Shown here piece after piece: positions 1-6,000 of a stretch of 64,000 nucleotides of DNA. Origin of the DNA: Nitrospiraceae bacterium. GTDB lineage: Bacteria; Nitrospirota; Nitrospiria; Nitrospirales; Nitrospiraceae. Each line of letters begins with the position of its first letter. Position 1 is the stretch's first letter. Location: NCBI GenBank assembly GCA_050246315.1, contig JBFWWG010000001.1, positions 384,001-448,000 of the forward strand, written 5' to 3'. A program made the position numbers.

Positions 1-3000
1 TTCGGCTTGGAATGATGGACTTACCCCCGCCACGGCCAGGGATGATGGGCGTTCCCACTCTCGTGACGCGAAGTGAACCGCTCGATCAGATCTGCCGGAT
101 CGGCGACAGCCGCTCCGGTCGCTCCGCGATACCCTGTCCCGCCTCCGCAACCGGGAGGTACTGGCCGGCCTGGTCGTCGAACGCCACGACATTGCCGCTC
201 TCGATCTCGTAGACCCAAGCATGGAGCCGCAGCGTGCCCCGACTCATCGCCGCCAAGACCGACGGGTGCGTTCTGAGATTCTCGATCTGCACGAGCACGT
301 TCTCTTGGATGCAGGCTTCGAGCTTCTCCTCTTTCGGCAGGTCCTTGTAATGCGTCGCCATCACCCGTCGTGTAGCCTCGGCGTAGGTCAGCCAGCCCTT
401 CGTGGCCGGCAAGCTGTCCAGCGAGGATGGATCCAAGACCGCCTGCATCGCGCCGCAATAGGTGTGGCCGCAGATAATGATGTATTTCACCGCCAGCGCC
501 TCGATGGCATATTCGATCGCAGCGGCTTCCGCTCCGTGCAACGGGCCGTAGGGCGGGATGATGTTGCCGGCGTTGCGCAGGATGAAGAGGTCGCCCGGGA
601 CGGTCTGGGTCAGTAGGGTAGGGCTCACTCGGCTGTCCGAGCAGGTCACAAAGAGCGCGTTCGGCTCTTGCCCCTTGCTCAGACGCTCGAACAGCTCCTT
701 TTTTCTGCCGAACACGCCGGACTGAAACCGGTGAATGCCGTCGATCAGCCTTCTCATTCTTTCTCGTATCCTTTCGTCTGCCCCCTCACCTTTATCCTTT
801 CCCCCACCGGGGGAGAGGCGGGTAGAGGAGGCTCAGTACCCCACCGTAAACCGCTGCCGGATATGCGCCGGGCGTTCGACCTCGTCGATCATGGCCATCG
901 CGTAGTCTTCGACCGAGATCCGGCTCTGTCCATGTTCATCCGTCAACATTTGATCTGCGCCGAGCCGGAACTTGCCCGTCCGTTGGCCCGGAGCCAAGTC
1001 GGCGGACGGGGAGAGGAACGACCAGTCGAGGCCGGTCTCCCGGCGCAGCAGGTTCAGGGCTTCGCGCGTCGCCAGCGCGCCCTGCTTATACTCGGCGGGG
1101 AACCCTGGCAGGTCCAAAGCCTGCACACCCGGCTTGACCTCCAAACTGCCGGCCCCGCCGACGAACAGTAGCCGCTTCATCTTGGCCTTCTTCACCCCGG
1201 CGATAATCGCTTGCGTCCCCTTGACCTGAAGGTTGTAAATGTCCGGATTGCCCCAGCCAGGATTGAAGGCGCTGATGACGGCCTCATGTCCTGCGACCAG
1301 CCGAGCCACCTCGTCTTCGTTGTAGACGTCCCCCTTCTGAGGATGGAGTTTTGGATGTGGCGGTAGTTTCTCCGGATCGCGCACGATGGCCGTGACTTCA
1401 TGGCTCCGCTGCAAGGCTTCCTTCAAAATCGCCGAACCGACGAACCCGGTGGCGCCGATGACTGCGATCTTCATCGTAGACCCTCCTGGATGACTCATCT
1501 GATCGAATCGAACGGGATCGTGACTCGCCCGGCCTCCGGCGGTTTTACACGTCACGATCCTTGCCGCCGCCACGAGTACGAACCACGCGAGCCGGATTGC
1601 CGACCACGACGCAGGCCGGCGGCACATCCCGAACCACGACGCTGCCCGCGCCGACCACGCTCCCGTCTCCAATGGTCACCCCTGCAAGGATGATCGCGCC
1701 GCCTCCGATCCAGACATCCTTGCCGACGCTGATCGGACGAGCATATTCCAACCCGGCTCGCCGGATGTCCGCGTCAAGCGGATGCTCGGCGGTGTACAGT
1801 TGCACGGCCGGTCCCATCTGCACATCGTCGCCGATTTCGATGGGCGCGCAGTCGAGGAAGACACAGTGGTAGTTGATGAACACATTGCGCCCGATCCGGA
1901 TGTTATAGCCGTAGTCGCAGGCAAAGACCGGTTTGATCACGGCGCCGTCGCCGCAAGCGCCCAAGAGTTCGCGCAGGAGCGCCGTCCGTTCGCCCGGCGC
2001 TTCATCCGAGGTCGCGTTGTACCGTGTCAACAGACGTTGTGCCCGCCGAATGTCCGCGACCAGTTCGGGATCAGCGGAGCGATAGAGTTCACCCGCCAGC
2101 ATCTTCGCCTTTTCCGTCTTGACGCCCATTGCATCCCTTCGCCTGAGCGGATCGCACCCGCCACCTCGGACTTTGAGCTTACTTCAATGTAGACTCACCG
2201 GACACGTGCGAGATCAGGTGGCGGAGCATCCGCTCCGAGCGGATGACGCCGACCAAACGCCGCGAGTCCCTGTCCTCGACGACCGGCAGCCAGTCGAGAT
2301 CGTGCTTGTTCATCACATCGCCGCCCATCAGGCTCGTGTCCTCCGGCGTGACCATGACGGGATCGACCTTCATGAAATCCCGGACGTTCGCCGTCGCGGT
2401 CTTCCCCTGGGCAAAGGCTTCGAACAACTCGTTCCTCGTGATGACCCCCTGCAAGCGTCCGTCCTGATCCAGCACGCAGAGGAATTCGAGCCCGTGCTCA
2501 TCAAACAGGCGGACGGCATCCTCAAACGTGTCGTCGGGCGAGAGGCGGTGCTCGGGGGCCATGTCCATGAAGGCGGACAGAGGCTGGCGTTCGAGAACGG
2601 CCCAGGCTTGGGTGAGCCGTGGATTCAGGCGAGGACGCCGCCATCGGAGCGTTTGGGCCATCAGATTGCGAAAGGGAGCGAGCGTGCCGGAAATTTGCGA
2701 GAAGACTTCTTTGCCCATGACGAGCACCTCGACCGCCGTGCGCGCTCGGACGCTCGCGCTGCGCACCGTTCCGTCGAGAAGCGCCATCTCGCCGAAAAAT
2801 TCTCCCGGGCCCAACCGACCGATGATCTTCGGCTGTCCCCTCGAGTCACGCCGTATGGCTTCGACCTCGCCCTGTTCGATCACATAAAAATTTATCGCCG
2901 GCTCGCCCTCGACAAAGATGATGTCGCCGGGGCGATAGTGCGCCCGCGCGATCCGTTCGGTCTGATTGGTCCTAGGGTGGGCCAGATCGCGAGGAAACAA

Positions 3001-6000
3001 CAGTTCCCAAGTCCAATCGAACGCGATCTTGATTCGGCGTGACCAGGAAGGGGATTTCAACAGATACACGGTCCGCCACAGCCACCAGGCCGGAAACCCC
3101 GAGAGGCGGACGCCCAGAATCTCGGCCACCGCGTTCCGCTCCCCGATGCCGCAGAGTTGGCCCAACGGCTTGAAGAAAAACGGCCTGGTGGGTTCACGCC
3201 GGAGTACCCGGACGATGTTCTCCGCCGCTTGACGCCCTTGTCGTTCGGCAAACTGACCGGTTGTTGGAGAGACCTGTTTGTCGTAGGCATTGATAATGCC
3301 GGCGCAGTCGCCGATCGCCCATAGGTTCCGCGTCCCCTGCACGCGCATGTCCGGATCCGTCAGCAACCGGCCGCCTTCCTTAGGTGCCTCAAGCCGTTGC
3401 ACCAGGAGCGGCATGGTGGTCCCGATCGTGCAGACGACTGTGGCGCCCCGGATCATCCGACCGTCCTGAAGTTCGACCCCCTCGGCCGTGGCCAACCGGG
3501 CGCGCGCGCTCAACACCATCCGGATTCCGGCCTGCTCCATCTTCGTTCGTGCAAACTCGCGCAACGTCGAGCTCACTTCCGGAAGAATCTGATCCTTGGC
3601 ATGCACCAGCGTGACGCTGACTTCGCGGGCCGTGAAATTACCGTAGAACCGCAGGCTGGCTCGCACCAGGTCATTGATCTCGCCGGCCGCCTCCACTCCG
3701 GTAAAGCCGCCGCCGACTACCACGAATGACAGATACCAACGGCGCCGGTCCGGATCATCGCAGACCTCCGCCCTTTCCAGTTGCTCCATCACGTGAAATC
3801 GCAGCGCCATGGCATCGCCGACCGACTTCAACGGAAACGCGTGGTCGGCCATGCCTGGCACGAGGCTGAGATTGACCGCGGTTCCACAGGCCAGCACCGC
3901 ATGGTCGAACGCCATACGATTCTGGCGTCCATCGTACCCCTCGTATTCCACCTCGGAGGCAGCCAGGTCGATCTGTCTGACTTCTTCCGTCCGGCACTGT
4001 ACGCGAGGCAACATCTGGCGCAACGGGACCGTGACCGCCCCGGGGTTGATCGCCGCCCCCGCCACTTCCGCCAGCAACGGGTAAAAGACCATGTTGTTCT
4101 CTTGGCTGAACAGCACAATCTCGCAAGACTGCTGAGGCAATCGCTGACGCAGGGTTCTCGCGCATTTCACGCCGGCAAATCCGCCGCCCACTATGATGAT
4201 CCGTGTCATACCCATGACTTTGATGGTCAGCCCGTCCAGACCCATTACCCTCGGTCGATGACGAAGATCCGTACGCAGGTCGCCGAACGCTTACCGGTTA
4301 TCGGTCGCCGAACTCAAAAATGTCGTGTGAATCGGTCATCACATGCATGCCGGTGATGCCGGCAGATTGGATATCTCCACTCGCGAGGTGCAGTCGATCA
4401 CCCACGACGGCACCGGCCAAGCCGTGCCGGGGCATCGGCATCATGGGGAGTTCCGACCAGCTGTTCGTCGCCGGATCGTACGCTTCCAACGCGCGAAACG
4501 CCGCCATCAGATGCCCGTCCTGGTGCTCTCCGCCGGCCACGTAGATTCGTCCTTTGTAGACAGCCCAAGCTCCCCCGCTTCGCTCGGTCGGCATGCGGGC
4601 TTTCACCAGACCCCACTGGTCCGTAGCAGGATCGTATTCTTCCACCACGTTCGTGTTGCTGGCGGTGAATATGAACGCGCTACCCAGCCGGCCGCCGATC
4701 ACGTAGACCTTGCTGTTCACTACGCCGACGGCGGCATGGTTTCGTGCGGTCGGCATCGAGGAACGCTCGGACCAGGTGTTCGTCTTCGGATCGTATTCCT
4801 CGACGGTCCCGACCGACCGGTGGGGCCGTGCCGGATACAGGGCGATCTCGTTTGACCCAGGGTGGAGTGCCGCGCCACCGATCACGTAAATCTTCCCATT
4901 CACCGTGGCGGCGACGGCTGAGCCGCGCTTCGACGGCATTGCGGCCAATGCTTTCCAGCGATCTGCCTCCGGGTCGTACTCCCAGGCGTTGTTGATCGGC
5001 ACCCAGGCAGGCGGCCCCGACTCCGGGGGAACGAAACCACCGAATGCATAGAACTTTCCATTGAGCTCTGTGAAGGCGACATGGTGCGCCGGCAAAGCCA
5101 TCGGTTTTTTCTTTGTCCACATGTTCGTCGCCGGATCGTACTCGTACACAAGACCCTGAGGTGTCCAACCCGGCCCGAGTCCGCCGAAGACGTAAAACTT
5201 GCCGCCACTCGAACCACCGACCAGTTCCTCGGACGGCTCTGGAAACGGCGCGCCCTTGATCCACTTACCGGGATATTGCGCTACAGCGGGAGCAACGAGC
5301 ATGAGCATGCTCATCATTGCGATCAACACAAACGCTTGCATACACCCTCCTCGTCGATAGGGAAAAGATCGAACGCCATGACCATTATCAGCATTCGGAA
5401 TCGCCCTACTCAGATATCGCCGGGACATGAAGGCTAACCTCTTCCACGCGCCGCGTCCACGCTCCAGGTACAGGACCCCTGTGAAGAGGTGTACAGGAAC
5501 GTGAAACAATACAGAACCGCGAGTTCCTCCTTGTTCTGAATAGGCAACGGCGCCTGCGTGCCGTGTGCCGTCCAATAGGCGGCGGCCATCAAACCGCTTC
5601 AGAGAAACGTCGCCCACCCGGCATAAGGACCGATCATCACGAGCGCGCCACCGATCAATTCCATCGAACCGGCCAGGTATGCGATAAAAGAGGAACTGGG
5701 TGCGGCGTTCCGGGAAGTCCGAACAACTTCTGTGTACCGTGCCAGAGAAACAGGAACCCGGTGACGATGCGCAACAATGCATAGGCTTGAGCGGTACAGG
5801 CATGGATGAATGACGGGATGATTCTCTCCCTCGGAGGCAGCCAGGTCGATCTGTCTGACTTCTTCCGTCCGGCACTGTACGCGAGGCAACATCTGGCGCA
5901 ACGGGACCGTGACCGCCCCGGGGTTGATCGCCGCCCCCGCCACTTCCGCCAGCAACGGGTAAAAGACCATGTTGTTCTCTTGGCTGAACAGCACAATCTC

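What a model noticed while it worked through the whole genome (the two positions that open the first line are those of the whole stretch)
2179..4245. Type II NADH dehydrogenase fused to a cyclic-nucleotide-binding domain and a CBS pair
g00392 (688 aa) is a complete NDH-2 (two Rossmann folds plus the NDH2_C membrane-anchor/quinone part) that continues into a cNMP-binding domain with an intact phosphate-binding cassette (FGEMALL...RSA) and a tandem CBS (Bateman) module. I read it as a respiratory NADH:quinone oxidoreductase whose activity is gated directly by a cyclic nucleotide and by adenylate charge, so that a nitrite oxidiser, which must make NADH by costly reverse electron flow, lets NADH run back into the quinone pool only on a signal (for instance when it lives on stored glycogen). 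New would be allosteric second-messenger control built into a respiratory-chain entry enzyme; the architecture is conserved in Nitrospira [...]
Evidence so far: pfam.tsv: Pyr_redox_2 15-337 (E 1e-43), NDH2_C 362-420 (3e-11), cNMP_binding 436-518 (2e-25), CBS 568-611 and 621-677. Call 101: cassette 'FFGEMALLDGTVRSASVRA'. Call 99: 120 of the 120 best cluster representatives listed (54-98% id, 515-749 aa) carry PF07992+PF22366+PF00027, and 117 of them also PF00571; named sources include Nitrospira, Entotheonellaceae/Tectomicrobia, Ignavibacteria, Thermodesulfobacteriota. Call 102: in 25 aligned sequences (55-86% id) G485, E486, L489, A501 invariant, R495 and R500 in >=90%, as are the FAD/NADH GxGxxG glycines. 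The genome also has two plain NDH-2 (g02052, g03149). Search 100 (4 terms) found no paper.
(Added by a program. Inside this text positions count along the whole contig: contig position 384,001 is position 1 of the stretch shown here. "Call 12" and the like, gene names such as g00115 and contig names such as C1 are that model's own, and its searches are not shown. The text may have been shortened before it was handed on; [...] marks where a part breaks off. The agent that wrote the report below was given it as the finding of a first reader that could run no searches.)

Follow-up and report, generated by a model that had tools for sequence, protein, structure and literature searches.

The report
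NDH-2 quinone reductase with built-in sensors
This gene encodes a membrane-bound NAD(P)H:quinone reductase of the respiratory chain that carries its own cyclic-nucleotide-type and CBS sensor domains, a widespread design that nobody seems to have studied, and its signal molecule is unclear because the genome has no recognisable cyclase.

Summary
The ORF at 2179..4245 lies on the minus strand and encodes a 688-aa protein (true start perhaps M11 or M13). Sequence and fold both identify a complete type II NAD(P)H:quinone oxidoreductase (NDH-2). It continues into a cNMP-binding domain with a canonical phosphate-binding cassette and a CBS pair.

- **Substrate.** The acidic residue that marks NADH-specific NDH-2s (Ndi1 E272) is His here, and is never Asp or Glu in 48 aligned relatives. 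The 99%-conserved Trp at the NAD(P)H adenine is Cys or Ser. NADPH use is therefore likely.
- **Ligand.** No adenylate or guanylate cyclase was found in this complete genome. In 81 genomes of the family, 9 of the 14 that carry the fusion lack a class III cyclase, against 10 of the 67 without it. The cassette's Glu and Arg are nevertheless conserved, so the ligand is open.
- **Distribution.** The architecture is not specific to Nitrospira. It occurs in 14 of 81 family genomes and in many other phyla, and belongs to a larger NDH-2–cNMP family with FHA, TPR, DoxX and other add-ons.
- **Precedent.** Second-messenger control of NDH-2 already exists in the Ca2+/EF-hand enzymes.
- **Context.** Neighbouring glucokinase, transketolase and glycogen-debranching genes fit a role in burning stored carbohydrate.

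I rate it a new variant of a known kind, of moderate to high interest.

The parts
2179..4245 (-). Whole ORF, 688 codons plus stop. The probable real start is M11 (4215) or M13 (4209).
   Evidence: Orthologues are 671-680 aa. Residues 1-10 have pLDDT <50. The 5' ends are compared.
3235..4203 (-). Two dinucleotide-binding (Rossmann) domains, residues 15-337. They carry FAD GxGxxG (20-25), NAD(P)H GxGxxGxE (178-185), the GD pair (312-313) and the quinone motif GQFAER (330-335).
   Evidence: Pfam Pyr_redox_2 6e-43. Motif conservation in 48 sequences. PDB sequence hits 5na1 (3.8e-40), 4nwz and 9mqy. Foldseek TM 0.88-0.89 normalised to target.
3595..3603 (-). H215-A216-K217 at the end of beta-2 of the NAD(P)H fold. 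H215 takes the place of the acidic NADH-specificity residue.
   Evidence: It aligns to E in S. aureus and C. thermarum, D in mycobacterial NDH-2 and E272 of Ndi1. In A1 the position is H 41, Q 6, S 1 of 48, followed by S 36/48 and R 31/48.
3421..3432 (-). C272-T-I-G275, the counterpart of the WxxG motif beside the NAD(P)H adenine, with Trp replaced by Cys.
   Evidence: W is 99% conserved in 1762 NDH-2s (PMC5299459). Here the position is C 35, S 9, T 2, A 1, G 1 of 48. W occurs in 1 of 75 cNMP-fused representatives against 36 of 58 unfused ones.
2986..3162 (-). NDH2_C domain, residues 362-420, with two Trp-rich amphipathic membrane-anchor helices (384-397, 401-416) and the conserved glycines G362, G368 and G383.
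   Evidence: Pfam 6.9e-11. Helices in the model. The three glycines are 48/48.
2692..2940 (-). cNMP-binding domain, residues 436-518. The phosphate-binding cassette FGEMALLDGTVRSASVRA is at 2743-2796.
   Evidence: Pfam 3.8e-25. The closest solved relatives are PKA RI-alpha (1.2e-19) and PKG. Cassette conservation.
2215..2544 (-). CBS pair (Bateman module), residues 568-677. CBS1 has the motif GVITRNE (600-606) and CBS2 has GVIRSER (666-672).
   Evidence: Pfam CBS 5.1e-17, two stretches. Model pLDDT is 86-97 over most of 551-680. Column counts.
7717..12921 (-). Co-directional upstream genes: transketolase (7717-9846), ROK glucokinase-like (9903-10667) and glycogen-debranching-enzyme-like (10729-12921). 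These are context, not part of the protein.
   Evidence: Pfam. The same genes sit directly upstream of the orthologue in G070, G024 and (ROK only) G001.
3951..4200 (.). Copy 1 of a 250-nt direct repeat, lying inside the 5' end of the gene.
   Evidence: 97% identical to 5829-6078.
5829..6078 (.). Copy 2 of the repeat. It is the older 5' end of the gene, now an 88-codon fragment inside ORF 5599..6093(-).
   Evidence: It matches the 98% orthologue's start better than the live gene's own start does.

Best explanation
The gene encodes a monotopic membrane flavoenzyme of the NDH-2 family. It takes a hydride from NAD(P)H onto FAD and reduces a membrane quinone without pumping protons.

A sensor module follows the second membrane-anchor helix after a linker of about 15 residues. 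It consists of one cyclic-nucleotide-type domain with an intact phosphate-binding cassette. The C-helices of that domain run straight into a CBS pair.

I read the module as an allosteric switch on the enzyme itself. Ligand binding in the cassette, and probably an adenosyl ligand at the CBS1 site, would move the C-helix and Bateman unit. That movement would act through the linker on the amphipathic helices, which in NDH-2 form both the membrane anchor and the quinone entrance. It might also act on the remodelled NAD(P)H adenine pocket. The effect would be to turn electron entry on or off.

The electron donor is probably NADPH, or both nucleotides. The most likely physiological use in this organism is to pass reducing power into the quinone pool from stored glycogen or glucose via glucokinase and the pentose-phosphate pathway. 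The gate would stay shut otherwise, so that expensively made NAD(P)H is not drained.

Shown: architecture, fold, intact catalytic motifs, the His and Cys substitutions, cassette conservation, absence of recognisable cyclases, and gene neighbours.

Inferred: that the module regulates activity, the route of regulation, NADPH preference, the carbohydrate link, and the identity of both ligands (which cyclic nucleotide or other phosphate ligand is unresolved).

My odds: regulated NDH-2 about 0.75; NADPH accepted about 0.6; ligand is cAMP or cGMP about 0.35; carbohydrate or PPP link about 0.4.
For: **Catalytic core**
- Pfam gives all four families above their cut-offs.
- PDB sequence hits to S. aureus, C. 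thermarum, mycobacterial and yeast NDH-2 run from 3.8e-40 to 2e-27.
- The AF2 model has pLDDT 89.1 and pTM 0.67. Foldseek TM-scores to 5na1 and 4nwz are 0.88-0.89.
- Of the family-defining motifs listed in PMC5299459, these are kept in 48 of 48 aligned sequences: the G20 and G22 glycines of the FAD GxGxxG, GxGxxGxE including E185, the GD pair, Q331 and A333 of the quinone motif, and G362, G368 and G383.

**NADPH lead**
- H215 aligns with the E/D of four solved NADH-type enzymes. In A1 it is H 41, Q 6, S 1 of 48, followed by Ser and Arg.
- The literature holds that this acidic residue hinders NADPH binding and that an uncharged residue permits it (PMC11670749, passages).

**Sensor module**
- The cassette's E486 is present in 27 of 27 and R495 in 26 of 27 sequences at 55% identity or more.
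- In the 14 family genomes E is present in 14 of 14 and R in 13 of 14 (includes the unpublished G006).
- CBS1 keeps G600 (46/48), T/S603 (36/48) and D/E606 (42/48).

**Link between fusion and the active-site pocket**
- The Trp of WxxG is present in 1 of 75 cNMP-fused against 36 of 58 unfused representatives.

**Context**
- ROK, transketolase and the fusion gene are co-directional and adjacent in G070 and G024. ROK is adjacent to the fusion in G001. A GH15 gene lies 14 nt downstream in G046.
- The genome has three G6PD homologues and a 6PGD-like gene.

**Possible expression**
- In one sludge RNA library, contigs cover 2000-4188 at word depth 77-89, against 0-5 over the neighbouring Kelch, RidA and SDR genes. 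This is a weak hint only, because these are contigs and DNA carry-over is not excluded.
Against: - There is no biochemical datum for any member of this family.
- No cyclase was found in the own genome (100% complete): PF00211, PF01295, PF11294 and PF10851 all gave no hit. The last two rang in no control genome, so they are uninformative. The only CYTH protein carries a CHAD domain.
- In the family sample the fusion goes with the absence of class III cyclases: 5 of 14 fusion genomes have one, against 57 of 67 others. Kin are not independent, and the counts include the unpublished G006, G053 and G076.
- The cassette Arg is lost in 12 of 48 full-length relatives and in 30 of 81 representative cNMP segments. 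Part of the family therefore works without a canonical cNMP contact.
- A single residue does not reliably predict NADH versus NADPH use. PMC11670749 reports an enzyme with the uncharged residue that used only NADH.
- The plain paralogue on C5 also has His, so His is a clade trait and not tied to the sensor.
- Synteny with sugar genes is limited to related genera. 4 of the 10 loci share no neighbour with the window, and the G075 locus shares only a glyoxalase-family gene.
- How the module sits on the catalytic part is unknown. I could not read coordinates or PAE of the model.
Confidence: 0.6

Rival explanations
1. A strictly NADH-oxidising respiratory NDH-2 is gated by cAMP or cGMP and by adenylate charge, as a special safeguard of nitrite oxidisers against draining NADH made by reverse electron flow.
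For: - The cassette is canonical, and its closest solved relatives are the cAMP- and cGMP-binding domains of PKA and PKG (1.2e-19).
- One CRP-like regulator in the same genome also has a canonical cassette, FGELEVLEDAPRSTS, so some cNMP signalling may exist.
- The futile-cycle logic is sound for a nitrite oxidiser (inference).
- The nearest named orthologues are Nitrospira or Nitrospiraceae.
Against: - No cyclase was found.
- 9 of 14 fusion-bearing family genomes lack PF00211. These include one-contig and two-contig genomes of 99-100% completeness.
- The NADH-specificity Glu is replaced by His and the adenine-side Trp by Cys.
- The architecture occurs in non-nitrifying phyla and in only 14 of 81 family genomes.
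Confidence: 0.15
2. The C-terminal module is not a small-molecule switch in this lineage. It would be an orphan cNMP-like domain plus CBS pair serving as a dimerisation or scaffolding piece, or binding a protein partner, while the enzyme runs unregulated or is controlled only at transcription.
For: - No cyclase was found.
- Many relatives have lost the cassette Arg and/or Glu yet keep the domain: 30 of 81 segments lack Arg.
- The CBS pair has been gained or lost repeatedly on a quick tree (14 changes, at least 10 forced by well-supported branches). Fragments inflate this count.
- Other family members carry protein-binding add-ons such as FHA and TPR.
Against: - E486 and R495 are kept in 8 of the 9 cyclase-less family genomes, at 60-98% protein identity. 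That is hard to explain without a phosphate-bearing ligand.
- The CBS1 ribose-contact motif GxxT/SxxD/E is also kept.
Confidence: 0.15
3. It is not a bulk respiratory entry point. It would be an NADPH-dependent quinone reductase with a protective or biosynthetic job, keeping quinol reduced as an antioxidant like FSP1 or serving quinone maturation, switched on by stress signals.
For: - The NADPH-type pocket.
- Fold hits include the NAD(P)H-dependent CoQ reductase FSP1, with TM 0.73-0.76 normalised to target.
- A relative is fused to an AhpC/TSA peroxiredoxin domain (P0177), and others to glyoxalase or DoxX domains.
- A glyoxalase-family gene lies nearby in 5 of the 10 loci, counting the window's own.
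- The genome has another, canonical Glu-type NDH-2 (L004).
- A dedicated NADPH type II dehydrogenase in vitamin K1 synthesis is recalled from the literature; I did not check it here.
Against: - The best sequence and fold matches are respiratory NDH-2s.
- The sugar-catabolic neighbours fit energy metabolism better.
- Nothing here separates 'respiratory' from 'protective' use of the same reaction.
Confidence: 0.1

Closest known systems
Canonical bacterial NDH-2 (S. aureus 5NA1, C. thermarum 4NWZ, mycobacterial 9MQY/9MQZ)
   Same: The fold matches, with TM 0.82-0.89 normalised to target. It has the two GxGxxG motifs, the catalytic Glu (E185), the GD pair, the C-terminal glycines and two amphipathic anchor helices. 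The quinone motif is of the known AQxAxR subtype, which makes up 15% of NDH-2s (PMC5299459).
   Different: About 270 extra C-terminal residues (a cNMP domain and a CBS pair). His stands in place of the acidic NADH-specificity residue. Cys stands in place of the 99%-conserved Trp of WxxG. Gly often replaces the first Ala of the quinone motif (28 of 48).
Ca2+-regulated EF-hand NDH-2 of fungi and plants (N. crassa NDE1, potato NDB1)
   Same: An NDH-2 with a built-in second-messenger sensor. In NDE1 the regulated activity is NADPH oxidation, and these enzymes carry an uncharged residue at the Ndi1-E272 position (PMC11670749 passages; PMC5299459 conclusion).
   Different: In those enzymes the sensor is an EF-hand inserted between the GD motif and helix 7 inside the catalytic domain. 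They are eukaryotic and face outward from the mitochondrion. Here the sensor is a separate C-terminal module of two nucleotide-type domains in bacteria. No EF-hand is present.
Other enzymes with a fused cNMP-binding domain (mycobacterial acetyltransferase Pat; thioredoxin reductase with an N-terminal cNMP domain)
   Same: One cNMP domain is fused in cis to an enzyme. The NCBIfam Pat model hits residues 432-540 at 8.4e-10. A TrxR of the same flavoprotein superfamily with a cNMP domain has been expressed (PMC6544261, passage). cAMP activation of Pat is recalled and was not checked here.
   Different: The catalytic partner and the position of the domain differ, and there is no CBS pair. For the TrxR, the passage I read says nothing about regulation by the domain.
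COG2905-type 'signal-transduction protein with cAMP-binding, CBS and nucleotidyltransferase domains'
   Same: The same order, a cNMP domain followed by a CBS pair. JGI gives this name to fragments of the present family.
   Different: The output is a nucleotidyltransferase rather than an oxidoreductase. I found no evidence that the module here derives from it. Nearly all short relatives of residues 425-688 are fragments of NDH-2 fusions, and after them come PKA R subunits and CRP.

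Membership tests
NDH-2 (type II NAD(P)H:quinone oxidoreductase; criteria of Marreiros et al. 2017, PMC5299459) | First GxGxxG (FAD) | tested here: met
   G20-G-G22-F-A-G25. In A1, G20 and G22 are 48/48 and G25 is 47/48.
NDH-2 | Second motif GxGxxGxE with the catalytic Glu (S. aureus E172, 97% conserved) | tested here: met
   G178-G-G180-F-T-G183-V-E185, with E185 in 48/48. It aligns to E172 of 5na1.
NDH-2 | GD pair near FAD, and the Y/F-D surface pair | tested here: met
   G312 and D313 are 48/48. F113-D114 corresponds to the Y/F-D pair, with Y 27 and F 17 of 48 and D 35 of 48.
NDH-2 | Quinone-site motif AQxAxQ or its accepted alternatives AQxAxR and APxAxQ | tested here: met
   GQFAER. Q331 and A333 are 48/48, R335 is 47/48, and the first position is G 28 / A 20. 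This is the AQxAxR subtype with a frequent A-to-G change.
NDH-2 | WxxG motif (W 99%, G 100%) beside the NAD(P)H adenine | tested here: not met
   The motif reads CTIG. G275 is 48/48, but the Trp position is C 35, S 9, T 2, A 1, G 1 and never W. I treat this as a clade-specific deviation and not an exclusion, because all other motifs and the fold are met.
NDH-2 | C-terminal membrane module: three conserved Gly and two amphipathic helices | tested here: met
   Pfam NDH2_C 6.9e-11. G362, G368 and G383 are 48/48. Helices 384-397 and 401-416 appear in the model.
NDH-2 | NAD(P)H:quinone oxidoreductase activity with a non-covalent FAD | not testable with these tools
   Needs an enzyme assay.
NADH-specific NDH-2 subclass | Acidic residue at the end of beta-2 of the second Rossmann fold (Ndi1 E272) | tested here: not met
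   H215. In A1 the position is H 41, Q 6, S 1 of 48.
Cyclic-nucleotide-binding domain (PF00027), ligand-competent type | Phosphate-binding cassette with G-E ... R-[ST/A]-A | tested here: met
   FGEMALLDGTVRSASVRA. Pfam 3.8e-25. E486 and R495 are kept in close relatives.
Cyclic-nucleotide-binding domain, ligand-competent type | A source of cAMP or cGMP in the cell | tested here: not met
   No PF00211 or PF01295 hit in the own genome, which is 100% complete. Only a CYTH-CHAD protein is present.
Cyclic-nucleotide-binding domain, ligand-competent type | Measured binding of a cyclic nucleotide | not testable with these tools
   Needs ITC, a thermal shift assay or a crystal structure.
CBS pair (Bateman module) | Two tandem CBS motifs forming one module; ribose-contact motif G-h-h-T/S-x-x-D/N | tested here: met
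   Pfam CBS in two stretches, 62.4 bits against a cut-off of 24. CBS1 reads GVITRNE with G 46/48, T/S 36/48 and D/E 42/48. CBS2 reads GVIRSER with Arg at the T/S place. The motif definition is recalled.
EF-hand (Ca2+-regulated) NDH-2 | EF-hand insertion between the GD motif and helix 7 | tested here: not met
   No EF-hand family at E <= 0.01, and no insertion there relative to 5na1.

The most novel reading that the evidence does not exclude
In cyclase-less Nitrospiraceae the fully conserved phosphate-binding cassette senses something other than cAMP or cGMP made by a known cyclase. That would mean either an unrecognised cyclase class or a different phosphate-bearing metabolite. The sensor would act on a specially remodelled NADPH pocket, since loss of the otherwise universal Trp travels with the fusion. 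The fusion would then be a metabolite-gated valve between the pentose-phosphate NADPH pool and the respiratory quinone pool. The larger NDH-2–cNMP family, with its FHA, TPR, DoxX, aquaporin-like and peroxiredoxin add-ons, would be a hitherto unnoticed layer of post-translational control of electron entry into bacterial respiratory chains.
Probability: 0.2. Interest if true: 0.8.

Novelty: new variant of a known kind. Interest (0 to 1): 0.6.

Why it matters
NDH-2 is usually treated as a simple, unregulated bypass of complex I, and it is a drug target in pathogens. The known built-in regulation is the eukaryotic Ca2+/EF-hand type. Here a large and diverse bacterial group carries nucleotide-type sensors on the enzyme itself: 85 of the 150 nearest 50%-identity clusters have a cNMP domain, and 30 of those also have a CBS pair.

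If the module gates activity, it would show how bacteria throttle non-energy-conserving electron entry at the protein level. For chemolithoautotrophs that make NAD(P)H by reverse electron flow, it would show how a futile cycle is avoided while stored glycogen can still be respired.

The conserved cassette in genomes without any recognisable cyclase is a concrete handle on an open question, namely what orphan cNMP domains bind. Everything is testable with one recombinant protein.

Tried and rejected
- **Docking of the two halves.** Complex prediction on the catalytic half (11-424) against the sensor half (425-688), both with alignment A1, scored 0.00 in two runs and no controls were run. The tool gives no verdict, so nothing follows for or against an interface.
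- **Reading the model.** I could not read coordinates or PAE of model m62a8d9866ec0. The position of the module relative to the NAD(P)H and quinone sites remains unknown.
- **Free-standing module.** Searching residues 425-688 among proteins of 145-462 aa returned almost only fragments of NDH-2 fusions, many on contigs of 1-3 kb or still carrying NDH2_C. P0275 (311 aa, 20.7-kb contig) and P0281 (236 aa, 42-kb contig) may be split genes. There is no clear independent cassette.
- **Minor cyclase families.** PF11294 and PF10851 gave no hit, but they rang in no control genome either, so they are uninformative.
- **Conserved operon partner.** Rejected. My first greedy ORF table was misleading for G024 and G001, because spurious antisense ORFs masked real genes. 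It was replaced by tblastn.
- **Literature.** Seven full-text searches found no paper describing an NDH-2 with cNMP or CBS domains. Marreiros et al. [quoted passage not shown] Marreiros et al. 2016 (Environ Microbiol) was not available and not read. Supplements of the papers used were not opened.
- **Earlier notes.** The search of earlier findings returned nothing for this genome.
- **Assembly artefact.** I considered whether the 250-nt repeat is an assembly artefact. The contig graph of three independent studies fits a real minority haplotype better, but contigs cannot prove it.

Full report
**1. What is there**

The finding's coordinates delimit one ORF on the minus strand, 2179..4245, of 688 codons. 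Pfam places four families on it, all above their curated cut-offs:
- Pyr_redox_2 at 15-337 (6e-43)
- NDH2_C at 362-420 (6.9e-11)
- cNMP_binding at 436-518 (3.8e-25)
- CBS in two stretches between 568 and 677 (5.1e-17)

The first ten residues are doubtful. Orthologues are mostly 671-680 aa. Genome matches in G024 and G046 run into a stop codon just upstream of the conserved start. The model is disordered at residues 1-10. M11 or M13 is therefore the likelier start, although M1 has a GAGGG three bases upstream.

**2. The catalytic part is a bona fide NDH-2**

By sequence, the best solved relatives are all NDH-2s:
- S. aureus (5na1, 3.8e-40)
- a mycobacterial enzyme (9mqy, 6e-38)
- C. thermarum (4nwz, 1.8e-36)
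- yeast Ndi1 (about 2e-27)

An AlphaFold2 model built on 48 full-length relatives (alignment A1, 32-86% identity to the query) has mean pLDDT 89.1 and pTM 0.67. Foldseek aligns it to 5na1 and 4nwz with target-normalised TM 0.88-0.89, to 9mqz with 0.82, and to Ndi1 with 0.76-0.80.

I took the family's defining motifs from Marreiros et al. 2017 (PMC5299459; sections 4 and 20 read) and checked them in A1:

| Motif | State here |
|---|---|
| FAD GxGxxG | kept |
| GxGxxGxE with catalytic Glu | E185, 48/48 |
| GD pair | 48/48 |
| Y/F-D pair | kept |
| Three C-terminal glycines | G362, G368, G383, 48/48 |
| Quinone motif | GQFAER (Q331 and A333 48/48, R335 47/48) |

The quinone motif is the paper's accepted AQxAxR alternative, found in 15% of NDH-2s. 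Two Trp-rich amphipathic helices (384-397, 401-416) are modelled where NDH-2 anchors to the membrane.

**3. Two deviations in the NAD(P)H site**

(a) *The specificity residue.* H215 sits at the end of strand 210-214, behind the second GxGxxG. It aligns with the Glu of the S. aureus and C. thermarum enzymes, the Asp of the mycobacterial enzyme, and the Glu of Ndi1. By the offset of the catalytic Glu, that Ndi1 residue is E272.

In A1 this position is H 41, Q 6, S 1 of 48 and never acidic. It is followed by Ser (36/48) and Arg (31/48) or Gly (13/48).

According to passages of PMC11670749, this acidic residue is thought to prevent binding of the NADPH phosphate. An uncharged residue occurs in NADPH-using NDH-2s, and mutating it broadened specificity in a bacterial enzyme. 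The same paper warns that the residue alone does not predict specificity.

(b) *The WxxG Trp.* This Trp is 99% conserved and lies beside the NAD(P)H adenine. Here it is Cys, and in A1 it is C 35, S 9, T 2, A 1, G 1 of 48.

I then looked at the 150 best representatives of 50%-identity clusters, taking those with this part of the domain covered:

| Class | n | Trp present | Acidic residue at 215 |
|---|---|---|---|
| cNMP + CBS | 22 | 0 | 0 |
| cNMP only | 53 | 1 | 9 |
| no cNMP domain | 58 | 36 | 17 |

Some 'unfused' rows are fragments of fused proteins, so the contrast is if anything understated. His at 215 is a trait of the wider clade. The genome's plain paralogue on contig C5 has LVHSGG, GQHALR and a Trp. 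The other paralogue, on C10, is a canonical LVEGGE / APxAxQ type. Loss of the Trp, by contrast, travels with the cNMP fusion.

I conclude that NADPH is probably accepted (about 0.6), and that the adenine pocket was remodelled together with acquisition of the sensor. The reason for that coupling is unknown.

**4. The sensor module**

A low-confidence linker at about 417-431 separates the last anchor helix from a cNMP-type beta-barrel (432-511). The barrel is followed by helices 512-552, which lead directly into the CBS pair at 556-687.

The cassette FGEMALLDGTVRSASVRA has the Gly-Glu and Arg-Ser-Ala of ligand-competent domains. The closest solved relatives are the cAMP and cGMP domains of PKA RI-alpha (1.2e-19) and PKG, ahead of CRP-type regulators.

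Conservation of the cassette:
- Among the 27 A1 sequences at 55% identity or more (query included), Glu is present in 27 and Arg in 26.
- Over all 48 sequences, Glu is 42 and Arg 36. Several distant full-length relatives have Tyr, Trp, His or Asp at the Arg place.
- In 81 cNMP segments of representative NDH-2 fusions, 50 keep both residues, 16 keep only Glu, 1 keeps only Arg and 14 keep neither.

CBS1 keeps the usual ribose-contact pattern: G600 46/48, T/S603 36/48, D/E606 42/48. CBS2 has Arg at the Thr/Ser place. One adenosyl-type site is therefore plausible, but 'adenylate charge' is no more than a guess.

**5. The ligand problem**

The own genome is 100% complete in 30 contigs. It gives no hit to class III cyclases (PF00211; the control rang in 4 known genomes) or to class I (PF01295). 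Its single CYTH protein is a 543-aa CYTH-CHAD protein. Two minor cyclase-like families gave nothing but also rang in no control.

In a sample of 81 genomes of the same family, a full-length fusion was found in 14. These are G000, G070, G024, G052 (split over two frames), G001, G046, G075, G044, G020, G064, G006, G059, G037 and G025. The last is only 37% identical.

PF00211 was found in 5 of these 14, against 57 of the other 67. The 9 without a cyclase include G024 (one contig, 100% complete), G059 (two contigs, 99%), and G075 and G037 (99%). Related genomes are not independent, so this is a pattern and not a test. The tallies include the unpublished genomes G006, G053 and G076.

Yet in the 14 orthologues Glu is kept in 14 and Arg in 13; the exception is G006. 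One CRP-like regulator of the own genome also has a canonical cassette, while three others do not.

Either an unrecognised source of cyclic nucleotide exists, or the cassette binds another phosphate-bearing ligand. I cannot decide between these.

**6. Distribution and relatives**

All 120 best 90%-clusters carry the NDH-2 and cNMP families and 117 also carry CBS. Named sources include Nitrospira and Nitrospiraceae, Entotheonellaceae, Tectomicrobia, Ignavibacteria, Thermodesulfobacteriota and Pirellulaceae.

The exhaustive search gave 45,406 representatives at E <= 0.001 and 1,689 at E <= 1e-30. I classified the best 150 with HMMs made from A1:

| Architecture | Count |
|---|---|
| NDH-2 + cNMP | 37 |
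| NDH-2 + cNMP, further C-terminal extension | 9 |
| NDH-2 + cNMP, further N-terminal extension | 7 |
| NDH-2 + cNMP + CBS pair | 29 |
| NDH-2 + cNMP + CBS pair, further C-terminal extension | 1 |
| NDH-2 without either sensor (24 of these with other extensions) | 60 |
| Other arrangements | 4 |
| Giant multi-cNMP proteins | 3 |

Pfam on 23 examples shows several kinds of add-on:
- On the NDH-2–cNMP core: FHA (P0147, P0160, P0172, P0178), TPR (P0162, P0195), N-terminal DoxX (P0156), an N-terminal MIP channel (P0164), N-terminal ketopantoate-reductase-like (P0213), C-terminal AhpC/TSA (P0177) and HlyD-like (P0233).
- On cNMP-less relatives: DoxX, glyoxalase or Rieske fusions.

A quick FastTree of 128 near-complete catalytic domains puts the query in a well-supported 59-row set (25 cNMP, 21 cNMP+CBS, 13 'plain'). 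It is apart from a 39-row set that is 38 plain and holds both own paralogues. The cNMP label needs 12 changes and the CBS label 14. Fragments inflate both numbers and the tree is rough.

**7. Context**

All genes from 86 to 13615 in the window are on the minus strand. In order of transcription they are:
1. cytochrome c
2. glycogen-debranching-enzyme-like
3. ROK glucokinase-like
4. transketolase
5. SDR
6. RidA-like
7. the NDH-2 5' fragment
8. Kelch-repeat protein
9. the fusion gene
10. maltose-O-acetyltransferase-like
11. NmrA-like NAD(P)H-binding protein
12. beta-carbonic anhydrase

tblastn of these genes against nine orthologous loci gave the following:
- G070: cyt c, GDE, ROK, TKT, fusion, Mac.
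- G024: cyt c, ROK, TKT, fusion, Mac, NmrA.
- G001: ROK, fusion, NmrA.
- G046: Kelch, fusion, then a GH15 glycoside hydrolase 14 nt downstream.
- G075: glyoxalase, fusion, then a GAF-GAF sigma-54 activator.
- G064, G059, G037 and G025: no shared neighbour.

The link to glucan and glucose catabolism thus holds for the window's genus and close relatives only. The genome has three G6PD homologues and a 6PGD-like gene, so an NADPH-yielding oxidative pentose-phosphate route exists. Taken with the NADPH-type pocket, this gives a coherent but inferred role. NADPH from stored carbohydrate would be passed to the quinone pool, and the gate would keep a non-pumping enzyme from short-circuiting reverse electron flow at other times.

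**8. Comparison with what is known**

The enzyme works like an NDH-2 and passes all but one of the family's motif tests, the exception being WxxG. It is not of the NADH-specific subclass by the E272 criterion.

Built-in second-messenger control of NDH-2 is known. EF-hand insertions occur, with Ca2+-dependent NADPH oxidation in N. crassa NDE1 (PMC5299459 conclusion; PMC11670749 passages). cNMP domains fused to enzymes are also known, including a thioredoxin reductase of the same superfamily (PMC6544261, passage) and the Pat acetyltransferase model that hits residues 432-540. The order 'cNMP then CBS pair' recurs in the COG2905-type proteins whose name JGI attaches to fragments of this family.

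What I did not find in print is an NDH-2 with cNMP and/or CBS domains. Seven searches of the held library found none. The large NDH-2 survey explicitly excluded sequences with extra domains. Hence my rating: a new variant of a known kind.

**9. Side observation on the 5' end**

A 250-nt direct repeat (3951-4200 and 5829-6078, 97% identical) means that the first roughly 88 codons of the gene occur twice. The upstream copy matches the start of the 98% orthologue in G070 better than the live gene's own start does.

The 1.9 kb between and including the live 5' end is colinear at 80% identity with the Kelch-fusion arrangement of G046. That stretch holds a fragment of a small gene, the Kelch gene and a new start.

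In Logan contigs of three DNA runs from three studies, I compared word depths:

| Region | X3 | X7 | X11 |
|---|---|---|---|
| Piece 4147-5858 | 35.8 | 6.2 | 31-40 |
| Flanks | 71-77 | 104-107 | 75-77 |
| Repeat core (about the sum of both) | 103.5 | 111.7 | 133.9 |

This fits a minority haplotype carrying the insertion beside a majority without it. Contigs cannot prove this.

In one sludge RNA library, contigs 98-99% identical to the gene cover 2000-4188 at depth 77-89. They continue into the G070-type start, while the Kelch, RidA and SDR genes lie at depth 0-5. This is a weak hint that the gene of a close strain is transcribed.

**10. Verdict**

The protein is best described as a sensor-equipped NAD(P)H:quinone oxidoreductase whose effector ligands are unknown. 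The specific cAMP/NADH/nitrite-oxidiser story is one possibility among several, and not the best supported.

Noticed in passing
window 3951-4200 and 5829-6078; ORF 5599..6093(-); Kelch gene 4298..5392(-): A 250-nt direct repeat duplicates the first ~88 codons of the NDH-2 gene around a 1.9-kb piece that holds a Kelch-repeat gene, a small-gene fragment and a new start. The upstream copy is the older 5' end. In three independent metagenomes the piece has 6-50% of the depth of its flanks, which suggests a polymorphic insertion or duplication.
   Followed up: partly
proteins P0147, P0156, P0160, P0162, P0164, P0172, P0177, P0178, P0195, P0213, P0233: The NDH-2–cNMP core is combined with FHA, TPR, DoxX, a MIP channel, ketopantoate-reductase-like, AhpC/TSA or HlyD-like parts in other organisms. 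This is a modular family of sensor-bearing NDH-2s.
   Followed up: partly
own genome, G000:C2:357094-357351(+): A CRP-like regulator of about 230 aa has a canonical cNMP cassette (FGELEVLEDAPRSTS), in a genome where no cyclase was found. Three other CRP/FNR-type proteins lack the cassette Arg.
   Followed up: partly
own genome, G000:C3:83305-85263, C10:157072-157941, C2:172719-173522: There are three glucose-6-phosphate dehydrogenase homologues, one of them next to a 6-phosphogluconate-dehydrogenase-like gene. That is many for a presumed chemolithoautotroph.
   Followed up: no
L021 10143-12290(+), L024 1700-3802(+), L020 16434-17972(+): GAF-domain sigma-54 activators lie beside or near the fusion gene in three family genomes (G075, G037, G046). 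GAF domains can also bind cyclic nucleotides.
   Followed up: no
proteins P0207, P0212, P0214: Giant proteins of 2651-3779 aa carry 12-16 tandem cNMP-binding domains, and these rank among the best matches to the query's cNMP domain.
   Followed up: no
window 2000-4188 in RNA run X15: Metatranscriptome contigs of a 98-99% identical strain cover the fusion gene and the downstream acetyltransferase at much higher word depth than the upstream genes.
   Followed up: partly
L003 1786-2865(+): The plain His-type NDH-2 paralogue on contig C5 is followed 4 nt later by a 359-aa secreted-looking protein with two glyoxalase-like halves. Glyoxalase-family genes also recur near the fusion gene.
   Followed up: no
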